Position numbers and translations under genes: made by a program | Notes under the pieces: generated by a model | Seen by the model: only the letters and a program-made list of their open reading frames with translations | What the model was told of the DNA's origin: nothing | The model's database searches: none | In this document: piece by piece, positions 3,801-42,639 of the stretch | How the letters are laid out: each line of letters starts with the position of its first letter | Numbering within the stretch: the first letter of the stretch is position 1 | NCBI RefSeq assembly: GCF_009914755.1 | Contig: NC_060935.1 | Direction: 5' to 3' (one strand) | DNA: 64,000 nt | Source: the human T2T-CHM13v2.0 reference genome, Homo sapiens

Positions 3801-6800
3801 AACAACTTTTGAAGACACAGACAGTACAATAAGACATAAACAGAAACAATAAAATGTTAAAAAGCAGAGAGATAAAGTGTAGTGTTTTTATTATTTTCTT
3901 TTTGCATGTTTGTTTATGCAATCAGTGTTAAGTTGTCATCAGTTTAAAATAATGGGTTATAAGATAGCACTTGCAAGCTTCGTGGTAATCTCAAACAACA
4001 TGCAACAGATATACAAAAAATAGGAAGCAAGAAATTAAAGCATATCAGTAGAGAAAATCACCTTCACTAAAAGGAAGACAGGAAAGAAGAAAAGAAGGAA
4101 GAGGATACCACAAAACAACCAGAAAAACCAATAACAAAATGGCAGGAGTATGTCCCCATTTATCAATAATGACACTGAATGTAAATGGTCTAAACTCTCC
4201 AATCAAAAGACATAGAGTGGCTGAGTGGATGAATAAACAGGACCCAACAATCTGTTGCCTAAAAGAAACACACTTCATCTATAAAGATACACATAGATTG
4301 AAAACAAAGGGATGGAAAAAGATATTCCATGCTAATGGAAACAAAAAAAGAGCAGGAGTATCTATACTTATATCAGACAGAATAGATTTCAAGAAAAAAA
4401 ACTGTAAGAAGAGACAAGGAAGGTCATTATATAATGATATGGGGTCAATTCAACAAAGGATATAACAATTATAAATACATACACACGCAACACTGGAGCA
4501 CACAGATATATAAAGCAAATATTATTAAAGCAAAAGAGAAAGGTAGATCTCAAGATAATAATAACTTGTGACTTCTACACCCCACTGTCAGCATTGGACA
4601 GATCGCCTAGACAGAAAATCAACAAGGAAACATCAGACTTTATCTGCACTATAGAGCAAATTGACCTAATAGATATTTACAGGACATTTCATCCAGTAGC
4701 TATAGAATACACATTTTTCTCCTCAGCACATGGATCCTTCTAAAAAATGGACCATATGTTAGACCATAAAACAAGCCTTAAATCATTCAAAAAATTTAAA
4801 ATAATATCAAGTATCTTCTCTAACCACAGTGGAATAAAACTACAAATCAGTAACAAGAGGAATTTTGGAAACAACACAAACACAAAGAAATTAAACAATA
4901 TGCTCCTGAATGACCAGTGGGTCAATGAAGAAATTAGGAAGGAAATTGAAAAAATTTCTTGAAACAAATAATGGAAACACAACATAGAAAAACCTATGGG
5001 CTACAACAAAAGCAGTACTCAAGAGAAACATTTATAGCTATAAGTAGCTACATCAAAAAAGAGGAGAAACTTTAAGTAAATAATGTAATGATGCATCTTA
5101 AATAATTATAAAACCAAGACCAAACCAAATGAAAAAATTACTAGAAGAAAATGAATAATAAAGATGAGATAAGAAATAAATGAATTTAAAATGAATAAAA
5201 AATACAAAAATCAAAATAAAAAGTTGTTTTTTTGACAAGTTAAACTAAATTGACAAACTTTTAGCCAGACTAAGAAAAAAAGACAGAAGACCCAAATAAA
5301 TAAAATCAGAGGTGAAAAAGATGTTATGACAGATACTGCAGAAATTAAAAAGATCATCAGTGACTAATATGAGCAACTATATGCCAATAAATCAGAAAGT
5401 CTAGAATAAATAGATACATTCCTAGACAAATACAACCTACCAAGATTGAACTAAGAAAAAATCTAAAACCTGACCAGACCAAGTAACGAGATCAAAGCCA
5501 TAATAAAAAGTCTCCCAGTAAAGAAAAGCTTGGGATCCAATAACTTCATGGCTGAATTCTACCAAATATTTAAAGAAGAACTAATACTAACCCTACTCAA
5601 ACTGTTCTGAAAAATAGAGGAGGAAGGAATACTTCCAAACTCATTCTATGAGGCCAGTATTACCCTGATACCAAAACTAGACAAAGACACATAAAAAAAA
5701 AGAAATTACAGGCCAATATCCTTGATGAATATTGATGCAAAAACACTTAATAAAATACTTGCAATCCAAATTCAAGAATACATTAAAAAGATTATCCATC
5801 ATGACCAAGTGGGATTTCTCCCAGGGATGCAAGGATGGTTCAACATACATGAATCAATCAATGTATACATTATATCATCAGAATGAAGGATAAAAACCAT
5901 ATGATCATATCAATTGATGCTGAAAAGTATTTGATAAAATTCAACCATCCTTTCATGAAAAAAAAAACCTCAAAAATTGAATATAGAGGGAACAAACATC
6001 AATATAATAAAAACCATATATGACAAACCCACAGTAAATGGGGAAAAGCTGAAAGCCTTTCCTCTAAGATCTGGAACATGACAAGGATGCCCACTTTCAC
6101 CCCTGTTATTCAACATAGTACTGGGAGTCTCAGCTAGAGGAATCAGAAAAGAGAAAGAAATAAAGGATTTGTCTAGGAATGTATCTATTTATTCTAGATT
6201 TTCTGATTTCCAAATTGGAAAGCAAGAAGTCAAATTAACCTTGTTTGCAGATGATAATATCTAATATTTGGAAAAACCTGAAGACTCCACCAAAAAACTA
6301 TTAGAACTGATAAACAAATTCAGTAAAGTTGTAGGATACAAAATCAACATAAAAAATCAGTAGCATTTCTATATGTCAACAATGAACAATCTGAAAAAAA
6401 ATTTAAAAAGTAATCCCATTTACAACAGCGACAAAGAAAATTAAATACTGAGTAATTAACCAAAGAAGCAAATGATCTCTGCAATCAAAACTAGAGAACG
6501 CTGATGAAAGAAATTGAAGAGGACACAAAAAATGGAAAGATATTCTATGTTCATAGATTGGAAAAATAAATATGGTTAAAATGTCTATACTCCCCAAAGC
6601 AATCTACAGATTCAGTATAATCTCTATCAAAATACCAATGACATTCTTCACAGAAATAGCAAAAACAATTCTTACACCACAGAAGACCCAGAATAGCCAA
6701 AGCTATTCTGAGCAAAAAGAACAAAACTGGAGAAATCACATTACCTGACTTCAAATTATACTGTAGAGCTACAGTAACCAAGACAGCATGATACCGGCAT

Positions 6801-22200: not shown

Positions 22201-24144
22201 TTCTCTTTCCCTTCTGTCTTCCTGCCTTCCTCAATGAGGTTGCTTTATACATTGGTAATACAATTGGTTTTTAAAATCACATTCTGCATTCTATCTTAGG
22301 ATCTTGTGACTTCCTGAATGACTTTTAACATGCATACATTAAGGTTCACTCTTTGTGCTATAAAGGTCTACAGGGCTTTAACAAATGTGCAATGTCATAG
22401 ATCCATTATTGCAGTATCAAGCATGGTTTCACTGCTCTAAAAAAAAATCCAGTAATTCACCCACTCAACACTTTCTCCCAGAAAACCCCTGACAATCAAT
22501 AATCATTTATCATTTCTATAGTTTTGACTTTTCCAGAATATCATATAATTGGAGTCAGACAGTATGTGGTTTTTGCTGATTGGCTTCTTTCATTTAGCAA
22601 TATGCATTTAAGATTTATTCATGTCTTTTTGTGGCTTAAAAGCTTAATTCTTTTCATTATTCAATAATATTCCATTGCGTGGATGTACCAGTTTGTTTAT
22701 ACACTCACCTATTGAGGGCATATTGTTTGCTTTCAAATTTTTGCAATCATAAATAAAGCTGCTATAGACATACATGTGGAGGTATTTTTGTGGACATAAA
22801 TTTTCTAACAGTTCCTAAATACCTAAAAATATGACTGATGGCTTGTATGGTAAGACAACACTTACCTTTGGAAGAAAATGCCAAACTGTCTTTCAAAGTG
22901 GCTGTGCCATTTTGCATTCCCACCAGCAATGAATGAGAGTTCCAGCTGCTCTGCATCATAACTAGCAATTGATAGGGTTTAAAAAATTTTTTTTTAAATT
23001 TTAGCCATTCTAATAGTAGTGTAGTGGTGTCTTATTATTGTCTGAATTTGTAATTCCCTAATTACAAATGATGTTTAGCATCTTTTTGATGTGCTTATTT
23101 GCCATCTGTATATCTTTGGTAAGGTGTCTGTTCAGATCTTTTACCCATTTAATTGCATTGCTTACTTTCTTATTGTTGAGTTATAAGGGGCCTTTGTATA
23201 TTTTAGATACAAATCTTTTATCAGACATGTGATTTTCTAGTATTTTTTTCACTGCTATCATTTGTCTTTTGATTTTCTTCACAGTGTCATTTCGAGAGCA
23301 GACATTTTTAATTTTGAGAAAGTCCAATTTATCATTTTTTTCATGGATTGTATTTTTGTTGTTGTATCAGAAAAACCTCATCATCAAAACCCAAGGACAT
23401 ATAAAATTTTTTGGGTGTTTTCTTCCTAGAAACTTTATAGTTTGAATTTTACATTTAGGTGTAAGTTTCATTTTGAGTTAATTTTCATGAAAAGTGTCAA
23501 ATGTGTAAATGTGTACTTTTTTTTACGTATGGACATCCAATTGCTTTACCACCATTTGTTGAAAAGACAACAAATCATCTCTCCATTGAATTCCCTTTGC
23601 TCCTTTGTTAAATATCGGTTGCCTATATTTGTTTGAGAAGGTGTCTAGTCCCTATTTTGTTTCATTGATTGATTTTTCTATTTCTCTCTGAATATCATGC
23701 TGCTTTGATTATTGTAACTTTGTAGTAAGTATTGAAACCAGTTAGTGTGAGTCATCCAACTTTGTTTTATTCAGTATTGTGTTGGTTATTCTATGCCTTT
23801 TGCCTTTCCATATAAACTTTAGATTCACCTTACTGATATCTACAAAATAGCTGCTGAGATGTTGATTGAGACTGTGTTGAATCCATAGATCAATTTAGGA
23901 AGAAATAACATCTTAACAATCTTGAATCTTCCAATCCATGAACACAAAATATCTCTCTTTTTTTAAATTTTACTTTTTTGTGAGTACATGGTAGGTGTAT
24001 ATATTTATGGGGTACATGATATATTTTATTAAGATCTTTAATTTTTTAGTCAGAGTGTTGTACATTTCCACATATAGGTCCTGCAAATTTTTTGTTAAAT
24101 TTATACATACATATTTCTGTGTTGGTGCTATTGCAAATGGTATT

Positions 24145-24450
24145 GGTTTTGTTTTGTTTTGTTTTTTTGTGAAAGAGTCTCACTATGTCACCCAGGCTGG
24201 AGTTCAGTGGCACGACCATATCTCACGGTAACCTCAACCTCCTGGACTCAACCAATTCTCCTGCCTCAGCTTCCCAAGTAGCTAGGTCTACAGATGTATG
24301 CCACTATGCCTGGCTAATTTTTAAATTTTTTTGTAGAAATCAAATCTTACCATGCTGCCCAGGCTGGTCTTCAACTCCTAGCCTCAATGCTCATTGGCCT
24401 CATTGTCTCTCAAAGCACTAGGATTACAAGCTTGAGCCACCATAGCTGGC
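24145..24450 (-). mobile_element. AluJ-like element
   Basis: GTTTT-repeat tail and diverged Alu dimer. Confidence 0.88.
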
Positions 24451-24492
24451 CTTGTTTTAAAATTCAAAATGCCAGTTATTCATTGCTGGTGA

Positions 24493-25152
24493 TGTTGCCG
24501 GAAGGCCCAAAGGGTCTCTGGACACTGGTGAAACCAAAGCCCTAGCCCGGTTCCAGGTTCTTGACATCTTTTTAAGGAAGAATTCAGGGACCTGATGTTA
24601 GGAAAAAAGCATTTACTTTGTCACAATTAAGTGTGATGCTAGCTGCATATTTTTTGCAAATATTCTTTATCAAGTTGAAAAGGTGCTTCTCTACTTGGTT
24701 GCTAAGAGTTTTTGTTGGGGATTGGTGTTGGATTTTGCAGAATGTGTTTTTGATAACAGTTTTTGAGAATAAAGTGAAAGGCAAGAAGCTTTTATTGTGA
24801 AGGGAGAGTACACACGTGAGAGAGAAGTGTTGGGGGCTCCTGGGAATGGGTTGCACATAAAAAAGTTTGTGTTTCTAATTTTATGGGTGTTTCTTTAATT
24901 AGGGGGTAGAATAATCATCAGGTATTCTGGAAAAGGACAGGATTTCAGGAACTCCCATTCACCTCCCCTTTCCTCTTATTTGGGTTTGCCCAGAAGAGTC
25001 ATGGACATGTCACCCTGACAAGAGTTTTGGCTGTTTTCTCTCCCTTATTTTGGATTTTCTGTTATCCCATGGTTTCTTTGCCTAGTACCTGTTTGAGGTG
25101 TTGTTTGGGTTTTTCTTTCTTCCTGAGACTACCCAGTGCTATTCCTATCTCA
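24493..25152 (-). mobile_element. ERV1/MER4-group solo LTR, interrupted by a 171-bp duplicated L1 segment
   Basis: TG...CA termini; minus strand begins TGAGATAGGAATAGCACTGGGT; minus-strand AATAAA near 24791-24796; L1 sequence resumes on both sides. Exact subfamily not assigned. Confidence 0.75.
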
Positions 25153-26460
25153 GTATATGACTTTTGTATACGAACCCATCTTGTAACCTTGCTATAATAG
25201 TTCAATAGTTTCTTTTTTTTTTTCAGTATTCTCTGGGATTTTCTACATAGACAAACATGTCAGCTGTAAACAGATACAGTTTGCTTTTTCTTTCCATTCT
25301 TAATAGCTTTTATTTCATTTTCTTATTTTATTATACTAGCTAAGATATCCAGAATAATGCTTAATAGGAGAGGTGAGAGTAGGTAACCTTATTTTTTTCC
25401 TGATGTTAGGAAAAAAGCATTTACTTTGTCACAATTAAGTGTGATGCTAGCTGCATATTTTTTGCAAATATTCTTTATCAAGTTGAAAAGGTGCTTCTCT
25501 ACTTGGTTGCTAAGAGTTTTTGTTGGGGATTGGTGTTGGATTTTGCAGAATGTGTTTTTGATAACAGTTGATAGAATTATATAATTTTTTTTCTTTAGCC
25601 TGTGGATGTGGTGGATTACAATTATTAGCTTTTGAAAGTTGAATCAGTCTTGCTATCTGCAATACATTTCACTTGGTTGTGGAGTATAATTCTTTCTATA
25701 CGTTGTTGGATTTAATCTGATAATATATTGTTGAGAAATTTTGCATCACATTCATGGGAGATACTGACCCATAATTTTCCTTTTTTTTGTATTGTGTTTA
25801 CCTGAATTTGCTATCAGGGTAATGCTGGTCCCATAGAATGGCCTAGGAAAAATGTTTCTTCTGCTCCACTTTGGGAAAATATTGCAGGGAATTGGTATCA
25901 TTTCTTCCTGAAATGTTTAAGAATTTACTAGTAAAAGCCTCTGGGCTGCAATCTTTCTTTTTTTGGAGGTTATGTGATAACTGATTTCATTTTTAAAATA
26001 GATATAGATCTGTTCAGATTGTTCATTTATCCTTGTGTAAGTTTTGGTCTTTTAAGGAATTGGTTTATTTCATATAAGTCATCAAATTTGTAGGTATACA
26101 TTTGTTCTCAGTATTACTTTATTATCCTTTTAATGTCCATGAGATTGGCAGTGATAACCCCTCCTTCATCTGATATTGGTAATTTGTGTGATATCAATTT
26201 TCTTTTTTGTTATCTTGGCTACAGGTTGATCAATTACTGATCTTTTTAAAGAATTAGCTTTTAGTTTCATTGATTTTCTGTATTGATTTCTTATTTTAAT
26301 TTCATTGATTTGTGCTATAATCTTTCTTATTTCTTTTCATCTGGTTCTTTAGGCTTAAGTTTTGATTATTTCTCTACTTTTCTAAGATGGAAACAGGTTA
26401 TTAATTCAAATGTTTCTTCTTTTCTAATATATGTATTTAATGCTATACATTTCTCTCTAA

Positions 26461-26923
<463 letters not shown>

Positions 26924-28149
26924 TCAGCTATCTTTATCTTATTGATTACTAGTTGAATTCCACTGTAGTCTGAAGACATACATTGTATGATTTCTATTCT
27001 TTTAAGTTTGTTAAGGTGTATTTTCAGGTCTATAATGTGGTCTATCACGGAGAACATTCCATGTGAGTTTGAGAAGAATGTGTATTCTGCTGTTGTTCAA
27101 TGGCATTTTGTATAAATGTCAACTAGAACCAGTTGATTGATTGTGCTGTACAGGTCCACAATATTATGATTTTCTGTTTTCTTGATCTATCAATCAATGA
27201 CAGACTAGTGTTGAAATCCCCAAATATCTGACTCATTCTGAGCTAATTTTTCTAAAGAGTGTAAGGTCTGTGTCTAGATTTTTTTTTTTTTTTGCAGGTG
27301 GATAACCAGTTCTAGCGCCATTTGTTGAAAAGGCTATCTTTATTCCATTGCATTGCCTTTGATCCTTTGTCAAAGATCAGTTGACTATATTTCTGTTGAT
27401 CTATTTCTGAGCTCTCTATTCTGTTTAATTGATCTATGTGTCTAGCCTGTTGCTAATACCACAATGTCTTGATTACTATAGCTTTATAAGTCTTGAAGTC
27501 TAGTAGTGTTGGTTGGTCCTCCAACTTTATTCTTCTCCTTCAATATTGTGTTGGCTATTCTACATGATTTGCCTCTTCATATAAACTTTAGAATCAGTTT
27601 GTTGCTATTCACAAAATAAAATTCTGGGATTTTTATTGATATTGCATTGAATCTATAGATCAAATTGGGAAGAACTGACATCTTGGTAATATTGAAACAT
27701 CTTATGCATAAATGTGAACTCTCTCTCCTATTATTTAGTTTTTGAATTTCTTTTATCAGAGTATTGTAGCCTTCCTCATATACACTTTGTAAGTATTTTG
27801 TCATATTTCTCTCCAGATTTTCAGGTGTTCATTTGCCCTGTGACCTCATGTCTCTGCTTGGTCCAAGAAAAGCCATTGACTTTCGGTTTACTCAGCTTTT
27901 TCTTGTTTTAAGGATAGGACTATTGACTTTCAAAGTCTTACATGTTGGAACCGAATCTGAAAATTCCCAATTATTTGTGTATTTTAAATACACAAATTTG
28001 GTTTTAATGTTATTAAAACTAAAGCAAAATAAATACATAGAGGTGAATAAGGGAAATCAAGGAAGCATGGGTTGAGCATAACTTCTGGCAACTTCAAGTA
28101 GTTTGATGTGCTCTAGATCACAGTTTATGTGTGAAAGAGGCTACACATG

Positions 28150-36810: not shown

Positions 36811-37203
36811 ATATCTTATGTATGAGAGTTTGTCATTATAAATTTGATTTGATATCAATTTCCACTTGTCATCTTACTTCATCTGTCAACTAATGATAGG
36901 AATTCTACATATAGAAATAAATTGTTATAGTTTAAAGATTTGATCCTGAAAAAATGAAAACATCCCCCAGGATATGTGTTAGGTTGAGTTTCATCCAAAA
37001 GTCTTTCAGCTCCTCCTCCAGAGCAGTGGACAGTAGAGGTTATCGTCCCAATCACCACTCCCTATTCCCAGAAGATGGACACACCCCACCCCCTTGAATA
37101 AGTTTTTGAAACTTGTTTCTTCTTGTCTTTCAAGTTCTATTTCAGGATGTGCTGCATTTATATCACATAGAAATGGAAGCATTTTACTTGGCAACAAAGA
37201 TGA

Positions 37204-38666: not shown

Positions 38667-39424
38667 ATGAGCCTTTAAACTCATCAGGTCAAAATCGGTT
38701 TTTAACTTAGCAAATAGCATGCTCTGTTCTTGCCATCTTCAAAGCAGCATATACTTATGTAATAACTATGAATATATTTTGAACAGTAGTTTGATAATCC
38801 TTATATTCTTATTTTCTTTATTTCCTCTTATTTTCAATTTATTTCTATATGTAGAATTCCTATCATTAGTTGACAGATGAAGTAAGATGACAAGTGGAAA
38901 TTAATATCAAATTTATATTAATAAATATAATCTTTATATTCTTATTTGCACATATGTGCAAATTGTACACCCAGGTGATCAATGGAGATTAGAAAAATAT
39001 TTGAATCTTACTCATCATTAAGTAGGACAAATAAAAAATTATCTTCTCATTTATATATATGTCAATTAAATCCATGACAAAAGTAAAATCACAGTTTCAT
39101 GGGGGAAGAGAAAAGGAAGGTAAAATTTTGTTTGGGGACAGCATGGGACATTTCAAAAGTTTAGTAACATTTAACTGGATGTTTATAGAATAAGTTTTTT
39201 TCCAGACCAAGCAGACACGTGAGTCTTTTAGGTTTAGAGTAGCCAAATACTAACATTTTGAGTTTTTTAAATAGGAGAATAAGGTTATGAAGATTATCAA
39301 ACTACTGTTCAAAATATACTCATAGTTATTACATAAGTGCTTCCTGCTTTGAAGATAGCAAGAACAGAGCATGCTATTTGCTAAGTTAAAAAACTATTTC
39401 GAACTGATGAGTTTAAAGGCTCAT
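38667..39424. repeat. Inverted repeat, 133-bp arms (38667-38799 and 39292-39424), about 92% identical
   Basis: Manual alignment: 123/133 identical without gaps; weaker similarity extends about 24 bp further inward. Confidence 0.92.
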
Positions 39425-40856: not shown

Positions 40857-42639
40857 ATCAGTGTTAATTTGAAAATCCAATCTTTTTTTTTTTCAATGAG
40901 CATTGAACATTGAGTCACATACTAATTATGGTATATAATACTTGGCATGAACTTGGGTAAGTTACTTAAATTCCTAGCTTCAGTTTCTTCATCTGTAAAA
41001 TGGGTTTCATAGGATCTTTAAGAGAAATAATTGTGTATAATTTGCACCCAGGTGATCAACGGAGATGAGAAAAAATATTTGAATCTTGCTCATTATCAAG
41101 AAGTTCAAATAAAAATTATCTTCTCATTTATATACATTCAATAAGCTCAAAGTATCTACTTATCAAATTATCTGCGTACTTCACCCCTTTCCCACCAAAA
41201 TGTTGAACTTGTAGTTCATCAAAACCATACTGTAAACTGTTATGAGTTTACCTTTCTAGACGTGGTTATATTGAAATATTTTGCATGCACTGAAGTGTAA
41301 AATGAATGAAAAATGTTGGATTAAAAGAGATTCAATAAAAATCTAAAGAATATTTAAAAGCTTTATTAATGATTGTCTAACCTTGATTGGAATTTTAAAA
41401 TGTGAAGTTATGTCAAAATGTGTAGTAGGGATTTTTATTTGCACTAAATTATGTTTTTTTCTCCTTCCCTAGAAGCCATTTTATGCTACTCTTAGGACAT
41501 CATATGCTAAAGATATTATGGCTTAAAATAGATAATGGACAATGTTACACTGATGAGAATTATCTGTGTAAAGAAAGTTTTCAGTCATTCTAGGATTTCC
41601 AAACCTTGTCTTCTTAAATATGATAGAATGGTAAGTTCAATAAAAACTATCCATGTTCTGTGGGGAAAGGGGGTCAGTGAAGAGCCAGCCTTGCTGTCCT
41701 TTTCAGGAATTAGATAAAGTGTGCCTTAAGAGTGTCAAATACAGGTCTGGGCACTATGGGCACACTATTTCCACCTTTATTCTACCTTTCCTGCTGGGTC
41801 AACTTGCTACAGAACTGGGAGTCAATCCTGGAGTTCTAGTCTAAAACTCACTTCCTAAGCACACCTGGTGATTTTGTAAGCACTTAATTCTCTATTCTTT
41901 CTTGCTTAAAATAGCTAAAATCATTTCCGTTTCCTTCACTGAAGCTTAAATAATATAAATGCCAATGAGGAGGGACTTCTGTGAACTATGACAATAATCA
42001 TCTTATCCAGAGGATATTTTGGTGTCCTACTTGTTCTGAAAGCTTCCCCTATAGAACAGCCAAGAAACAAGAAATGAGTTCAAAATAGAGTGCTCATTAA
42101 CACATCTAATGATATCTACATTCATCTTGAGAAATAATGCCCCTATGTGACAATACTTCATCTTAGGAAAAAAAAAAAAAGGATATCAATCTGAGAGGGG
42201 TTTGGTATCATTGTTATTTTTTAAAAAGTGGATTTTTAAAAATTTTCTTTAAACATTTTTTACATGCCTACTTAATATGGTTAATCCATATGAATGGGTT
42301 AGGAAAAACTGAAATGTCTACTGATTAACTGAGTTACCTCAAAAACTAAACTGCAGCATTAAATTATTCTAAGATGTTACCCAAATCGAGAATATGTGTT
42401 GAATTACATAAAGTATGTAGCATTCCAGATCCTTTTCTTGAATCTCTTCTCCTAAACAAGATAACTTATTGGCTGTTTAAATGCTCTTGTGGAATGTTTC
42501 TTATCATTTCCTTTTTGCCATCAAAATATACCTTTATTTGTTACATGAGTAACATAAACATTAAAAAATAGTGTATTATTGATTTTGCCACAACACTCCC
42601 AGAACTATTAGCAACTTAAAAAAAGTTAGAAGTGACGAA

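What the first reader, a model, noticed from the sequence alone, without database searches (positions are those of the whole stretch)
24591..25569. Perfect 171-bp non-tandem duplication: old L1 sequence pasted into an LTR 808 bp away
24591-24761 is identical (171/171) to 25399-25569. The second copy is collinear with the surrounding ancient L1MC/MD. The first sits in the middle of a solo LTR with no poly-A and no TSD. Zero divergence between copies of a heavily decayed repeat implies a very recent event, possibly human-specific or polymorphic, by DNA-templated insertion rather than retrotransposition. The direct repeats could also promote an 808-bp deletion about 5 kb upstream of OR4D5.
Basis: partly seen in the sequence, partly recalled or inferred. 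Interest (0 to 1): 0.7.

Follow-up and report, generated by a model that had tools for sequence, protein, structure and literature searches.

The report
Polymorphic DNA-repair patch copied from nearby
A 171-base piece of ancient repeat DNA sits as an exact second copy about 640 bases from its source, likely pasted in as a patch when a broken chromosome was repaired in a human ancestor; a published catalogue lists people who lack it and infers its absence in chimpanzee, so it is a real but ordinary case of a known kind of mutation with no sign of function.

Summary
Confirmed: 24591-24761 equals 25399-25569 (171/171). The second copy is native to an old L1. The first interrupts a solo LTR whose halves are contiguous in 8 of 11 paralogues. 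Net gain is 169 bp: the 171-bp copy plus 4 extra bases in place of about 6 LTR bases; no target-site duplication, no tail. A long-read catalogue (Fujimoto 2021, Table S5) lists a 169-bp presence/absence variant at GRCh38 chr11:123,933,994-123,934,162, which maps to window 24596-24764. There, 3 of 22 Japanese alleles lack it, and liftover to chimpanzee classes it as a human insertion. So it is in two assemblies, polymorphic and probably human-specific. It fits the repair-mediated duplications of Pace et al. 2009 (824 in human, donor within 5 kb, mean 162 bp). It is not in their table, whose pipeline excluded repeat donors, and the catalogue labels it only L1MC/LINE. Likely mechanism: one broken end copied the nearby L1, let go and rejoined. 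No evidence for the proposed 808-bp deletion or for an effect on OR4D5. New member of a known kind; low interest.

The parts
24591..24761 (+). Acceptor: derived 171-bp copy of L1 sequence inside the solo LTR
   Evidence: Identical to 25399-25569; absent from LTR paralogues, whose halves are contiguous; overlaps the catalogued 169-bp variant at 24596-24764
24762..24765 (+). Four junction bases that belong to neither donor nor, apparently, the LTR (filler); possibly a second short templated slip
   Evidence: Do not continue the donor; differ from the paralogues at this place; 24759-24766 repeats 24746-24753, chance about 0.05
25399..25569 (+). Donor: native part of the old L1
   Evidence: Aligned through both edges in 10 L1 paralogues: net gap 0 in 6 of 10 (1 bp in 3, 5 bp in 1) at the left edge and 0 in 9 of 10 at the right; identity 62-75%, like its flanks
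24493..24590 (-). Left piece of the interrupted solo LTR (strand inferred from the poly-A signal)
   Evidence: Matches LTR paralogues at 69-81%; starts at a TG dinucleotide
24766..25152 (-). Right piece of the interrupted solo LTR; AATAAA on the minus strand at 24791-24796
   Evidence: 47 other matches at 73-85%; element length minus 169 is 491 bp against 479-507 bp in 9 paralogues
25159..26152 (.). Old L1 block that holds the donor; continues left of the LTR and the Alu at about 24025-24144
   Evidence: One continuous alignment to L014, similar blocks in the other 9 paralogues; family L1MC per the catalogue row
24147..24452 (.). Alu-like element in the L1 just left of the LTR (context; name recalled from its sequence)
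   Evidence: Many 70-75% matches in the window and in loci

Best explanation
This is likely a repair-mediated duplication: an exact 171-bp copy of nearby L1 DNA inserted into a solo LTR, probably while a germ-line double-strand break was being repaired on the human lineage. Shown: exact copy, direction (L1 to LTR), same orientation, donor 637 bp away, net gain of 169 bp, no target-site duplication or tail. Reported in print: polymorphic, and absent from chimpanzee by liftover. Inferred: a break in the LTR was resected; one 3' end annealed to the L1 about 640 bp away (sister chromatid, homologue or the other resected end) with little or no homology; a polymerase copied 171 nt and released; a short slip or untemplated addition gave 4 bases; the strand rejoined the other end with loss of about 6 LTR bases. 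This is SDSA-like capture closed by end joining. Which end invaded and which polymerase acted cannot be told. The allele is probably neutral and has drifted to high frequency.
For: Direction. Net size: of 11 LTR paralogues 8 were informative and show 2 bp (6), 3 bp (1) or 1 bp (1) less LTR sequence in the window; 171-2 = 169 equals the catalogued length, and the row maps to 24596-24764 by an offset that two genes give identically. Polymorphism and chimpanzee status. Class features: 824 human RDs within 5 kb, mean 162 bp; deletions of 1-15 nt and filler of 1-68 nt; none of 39 proximal cases had a poly-A/T tail.
Against: Junction microhomology is at most 1 bp on the left and ambiguous on the right, less than the 2-9 nt in most of Pace's cases, though 'filler + deletion' without microhomology was 5 of 39. 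The empty site was inferred from paralogues about 79% alike, not read from an orthologue; 3 of 11 paralogues were uninformative. The chimpanzee call is a liftover length ratio, not an alignment. The variant was found in one catalogue only: no row in the held supplements of Wong 2019 (file cut, GRCh37 position estimated from a recalled offset) or Wu 2021. No repair pathway can be proved from a scar.
Confidence: 0.85

Rival explanations
1. Replication template switch (FoSTeS/MMBIR-like): a stalled fork jumped about 640 bp, copied 171 nt and returned, with no two-ended break.
For: Gives the same product: direct orientation, close donor, small loss, short filler. The donor's left edge abuts a T7 run, one of 5 such runs in 1447 bp, a possible stall or release point noticed after the fact.
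Against: Needs two switches with return to within about 6 bp of the start; junction microhomology is minimal. Not separable from SDSA-like capture by sequence alone.
Confidence: 0.08
2. RNA-templated patch: a transcript through the old L1 was reverse-transcribed into the break (endonuclease-independent insertion, class 2 TSIP).
For: Class 2 TSIPs also show microdeletion and untemplated bases without TSD or tail.
Against: TSIP donors are distant; here the donor is 637 bp away in unannotated intergenic DNA. No T-tract from the donor's flank was carried into the left junction.
Confidence: 0.04
3. An older duplication kept identical by chance or gene conversion; the catalogue row is a later deletion or a miscall.
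For: Identity alone allows up to 1.7% divergence (95% bound); only one catalogue row supports polymorphism, and two other supplements gave no hit.
Against: The catalogue infers absence in panTro6 and 3 of 22 alleles without it; its 169 bp equals the size predicted independently from paralogues.
Confidence: 0.02
4. Assembly artefact of this reference.
For: Perfect identity is what a misassembly would give.
Against: The segment is also in GRCh38, and only 3 of 22 long-read alleles were called as lacking it; it has 4 junction bases of its own.
Confidence: 0.01

Closest known systems
Repair-mediated duplications (RDs), Pace et al. 2009, PMC2671141 (read: outline, parts 1-4 of 7 of the text, method passages, part 1 and searches of Table S1)
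   Same: Insert of 50 bp or more interrupting a transposable element; donor within 5 kb; size near the 162-bp mean; small deletion plus filler; no tail. 7 human-specific RDs were identical to their donors, and 1 of 10 tested was polymorphic.
   Different: The donor is itself a repeat, a case their pipeline systematically excluded; no Table S1 row begins 1233 or 1234 (hg18 position near chr11:123.31 Mb is recalled). Microhomology here is minimal.
Catalogued variant chr11:123,933,994-123,934,162 (GRCh38), Fujimoto et al. 2021, PMC8082928 Table S5 row 1355 (read: outline, passages, supplement rows)
   Same: Same place (window 24596-24764) and same net length, 169 bp; it is this variant.
   Different: Filed as an insertion event covered by L1MC/LINE; the column for tandem duplication, pseudogene or templated insertion is empty, so the nearby donor was not recognised.
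Polymerase theta templated insertions (TINS), Carvajal-Garcia et al. 2020, PMC7165422 (read: passages)
   Same: Direct-repeat insertions copied from flanking DNA, favoured by AT-rich templates and poor microhomology, with repeated rounds of synthesis; the 4-base filler could be such a round.
   Different: TINS are typically 3-30 bp with first tracts rarely over 10 bp; 171 nt from 640 bp away is outside that range.
Class 2 templated sequence insertion polymorphisms, Onozawa and Aplan 2016, PMC5110952 (read: passages)
   Same: Polymorphic patch at a presumed break, no TSD or tail, microdeletion and filler.
   Different: Their donors are distant and proposed to be RNA-derived; this donor is 637 bp away.
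Doublets of Thomas et al. 2004 (seen only as described by Pace et al.)
   Same: Short, near-identical, local non-tandem pairs ascribed to imperfect break repair.
   Different: Those surveys covered pairs under 100 bp.

Membership tests
Repair-mediated duplication (Pace 2009) | Insert of 50 bp or more splits an element whose halves are contiguous within 30 bp | tested here: met
   1-3 bp missing in 8 of 11 paralogues; 3 uninformative
Repair-mediated duplication (Pace 2009) | Donor on the same chromosome, more than 50 bp and less than 5 kb away | tested here: met
   637 bp between the copies
Repair-mediated duplication (Pace 2009) | One parental copy can be identified | tested here: met
   100% to the donor against 71-83% for the other 38 of 40 scored matches. 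Their filter against repeat donors was an ascertainment limit that they state themselves
Repair-mediated duplication (Pace 2009) | No added poly-A/T tract of 5 or more | tested here: met
   None at the left; a T5 run at 24760-24764 has only 3 added bases and is on the wrong end for a tail
Repair-mediated duplication (Pace 2009) | At least one junction mark: deletion, filler or microhomology | tested here: met
   Net loss of about 2 bp, read as about 6 lost and 4 filler
Repair-mediated duplication (Pace 2009) | Microhomology of 2-9 nt (common, not required) | tested here: inconclusive
   At most 1 bp at the left; right side obscured by the filler; judged from paralogues only
Repair-mediated duplication (Pace 2009) | Empty site in an outgroup genome | not testable with these tools
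   No ape genome held; the catalogue infers absence in panTro6 by liftover
L1 target-primed retrotransposition / class 1 TSIP | Target-site duplication of 5 bp or more and poly-A tail | tested here: not met
   TSD 0-1 bp, no tail; definition
Polymerase theta TINS | Insertion of 3-30 bp copied from the immediate flank | tested here: not met
   171 bp from 637 bp away
Polymerase theta TINS | Short secondary templated tract at the junction | tested here: inconclusive
   8-mer repeat 13 bp upstream; reached by 68 of 1200 control positions (5.7%) and by 5.2% of random fillers
Class 2 TSIP | Donor in a distant genomic region | tested here: not met
   Donor 637 bp away

The most novel reading that the evidence does not exclude
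This is the youngest, still segregating scar of a local hot spot of break repair: the 64-kb window holds five short local-only duplicate pairs of different ages (85, 90, 98, 99 and 100% identical), three with a copy packed into 400 bp at 38667-39066, so this olfactory-receptor interval would have broken and been patched from nearby DNA repeatedly through primate evolution.
Probability: 0.15. Interest if true: 0.45.

Novelty: new member of a known kind. Interest (0 to 1): 0.2.

Why it matters
Little on its own: repeat DNA copied into repeat DNA 5.5 kb from a single-exon olfactory receptor gene, with no annotated exon or element there (hub annotation). It is a clean marker with one origin, and a worked example of a blind spot: the 2009 RD survey excluded repeat donors, and a long-read catalogue files this event under an extinct L1 family. 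Other 'old-repeat insertions' in variant catalogues may be repair patches of the same kind, which can be counted with existing pangenome data.

Tried and rejected
Pace Table S1: no row starting 1233 or 1234, one chr3 row starting 1232; 30 of 123 chr11 hits viewed. Other catalogues: Wu 2021, 4 held files, no hit, and I did not check that they hold the full call set; Wong 2019, no hit for the estimated GRCh37 position in a file cut when stored; two further catalogue papers (ape and human long-read SVs) were not held, so ape status rests on one paper. Schloissnig 2025 (passages only) shows that local duplications are a routine class; its supplements were not seen and may list this site. Searches 'OR4D5 + insertion' (5 papers) and 'OR4D5 + structural variant/deletion/eQTL' (top 5 listed) showed nothing on this locus, from listings only. 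The 808-bp deletion: no row near it in Table S5 (that table keeps alleles seen 3 or more times in 22). PRDM9 motif (recalled): 1 match in the window, 14 kb away, 0.35 expected, so no link to a meiotic hot spot. LTR family name and its own target-site duplication could not be fixed: no repeat library; an exact TSD was found for 2 of 9 paralogues. Retrotransposition, artefact and gene conversion rejected as above.

Full report
Observation. Window 24591-24761 and 25399-25569 are identical over 171 bases and share no further base on either side. Start-to-start spacing is 808; 637 bases separate them. A genome search with the 171-mer scored 40 of 341 candidates: the two copies, and 38 others at 71-83% identity. 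The pair is therefore a true local duplication, not two members of an old repeat family.

Direction. The downstream copy is native. Ten L1 paralogues (10 of the 39 non-window matches; some are probably segmental duplicates of each other) align through it as part of a block such as 25159-26152. The net gap is 0 in 6 of 10 at its left edge (1 bp in 3, 5 bp in 1) and 0 in 9 of 10 at its right edge, and identity inside (62-75%) is like that of the flanks. The upstream copy is the intruder. It lies in a solo LTR at 24493-25152. In 11 LTR paralogues (the best 11 of 47 other matches) the parts matching 24493-24590 and 24766-25152 adjoin. Eight were informative: the window lacks 2 bp in six, 3 bp in one and 1 bp in one; L002, L004 and L008 failed through their own truncations or gaps. 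The element minus 169 bp is 491 bp, within the 479-507 bp of nine paralogues. The LTR family was not named; no repeat library was available.

Junctions. There is no target-site duplication (0-1 bp) and no tail. Four bases at 24762-24765 follow the copy but neither continue the donor nor resemble the paralogues, so the simplest reading is 175 bases in and about 6 out. The 8-mer spanning them repeats one 13 bp upstream, as a short slip of the copying strand would give, but 68 of 1200 control positions and 5.2% of random fillers do as well: suggestive only. Shared sequence at the left junction is at most 1 bp.

Age and polymorphism. Identity alone is weak: the chance of no difference in 171 bases is 0.13 at 1.2% divergence, 0.06 at 1.6% and 0.005 at 3.1%; the 95% bound is 1.7%. 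The decisive evidence is in print. Fujimoto et al. 2021 (PMC8082928, Table S5 row 1355) list chr11:123,933,994-123,934,162, 169 bp, allele frequency 0.136, a deletion against GRCh38, inferred event 'insertion', repeat L1MC/LINE. Their methods: nanopore reads of 11 Japanese individuals, and ancestral state from liftover of the flanks to panTro6. GRCh38 coding starts of OR4D5 and OR6T1 (Barnes et al. 2020, PMC7055050, supplement rows) give one offset, 123,909,398, which puts the row at window 24596-24764, on the upstream copy. Its length equals the 171 minus 2 derived from paralogues before I saw it. So the insert is in both references, 3 of 22 alleles lack it (95% interval 3-35%), and chimpanzee is inferred to lack it. 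A neutral allele at 19 of 22 has a textbook mean age near 37,000-74,000 generations, at which zero differences are expected with probability 0.73-0.85 (formula and rates recalled, rough). Against: I found it in one catalogue only; Wong 2019 (file cut, position estimated) and Wu 2021 gave no hit, and the chimpanzee call is a length ratio.

What is known. Pace et al. 2009 (PMC2671141) found 824 human insertions that interrupt transposable elements and have a donor within 5 kb, mean 162 bp, with deletions, filler or microhomology and never a tail in 39 inspected cases; they ascribe them to synthesis-dependent strand annealing. Fifteen were human-specific, seven identical to the donor, and one of ten tested was polymorphic. 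This locus meets every feature that I could test except clear microhomology. It is not in their table (hg18 position recalled), as expected, since they excluded repeat donors. Polymerase theta insertions are much shorter, 3-30 bp, and could explain only the filler. Class 2 TSIPs come from distant donors.

Mechanism. Shown: exact copy, direction, orientation, distance, net size, no retrotransposition marks. Inferred: a germ-line break in the LTR, resection, annealing of one 3' end to the L1 about 640 bp away, 171 nt of synthesis, release, 4 added bases, rejoining with loss of about 6 bases (0.85). A fork template switch gives the same scar (0.08); an RNA patch (0.04), an older event (0.02) or an artefact (0.01) are unlikely.

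Consequence. None shown. OR4D5 is annotated with one exon starting 5.4 kb away, and no functional element is annotated. The proposed 808-bp deletion is possible but has no row in the catalogue, and 171 bp is below the 300-500 bp quoted for efficient meiotic NAHR, although close repeats can recombine on under 50 bp (Gu et al. 2008, PMC2583991, passages).

A side lead. The window holds four more short pairs; for the three at 36.8-41.1 kb the genome search found only the two local copies. Treated alike in 10-kb tiles, the window gave 4 local-only pairs in 64 kb (a fifth crosses a tile edge) against 1 in 200 kb of 20 hand-picked control stretches. Without the index pair that is 3 against 1, binomial p about 0.05 by hand calculation, after the fact and on a small control. 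It is a lead, not a result; donor and acceptor were not resolved for these pairs.

Verdict. Real, well explained, catalogued as a variant, apparently not recognised as a repair patch in the sources I saw (searches; supplements of several large catalogues unseen). New member of a known kind; interest 0.2.

Noticed in passing
window 38667-38816 and 39275-39424: Inverted pair, 150 bp, 90% identical, 459 bp apart; only these two copies found genome-wide. Looks like an older local duplication.
   Followed up: partly
window 36847-36924 and 38835-38912: Inverted pair, 78 bp with 1 mismatch, 1.9 kb apart, in otherwise single-copy DNA; younger than its neighbour (1/78 against 15/150 mismatches, Fisher p 0.013).
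   Followed up: partly
window 38955-39066 and 41032-41142: Direct pair, 112 bp, 85% identical, 2 kb apart. With the two above, three different local duplicates have a copy within 38667-39066, about 4.2-4.6 kb upstream of the OR6T1 start codon.
   Followed up: partly
window 5389-5431 and 6167-6209: Inverted pair, 43 bp with 1 mismatch, 736 bp apart, in L1-like sequence.
   Followed up: partly
window 23468-23971 and 27233-27742: The same part of L1 occurs twice in direct orientation at about 69% identity, so two old L1 pieces are nested or adjacent around the finding.
   Followed up: no
window 25392-25398: The donor's left edge falls exactly after a run of 7 T; 5 such runs lie in the 1447-bp L1 block. 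Could mark where synthesis started or stopped.
   Followed up: partly
L037:1-181 and 380-561: Inverted pair, 182 bp, 89%, in a control stretch on contig C4, cut by the stretch's edge; the only local-only pair in 200 kb of controls.
   Followed up: no
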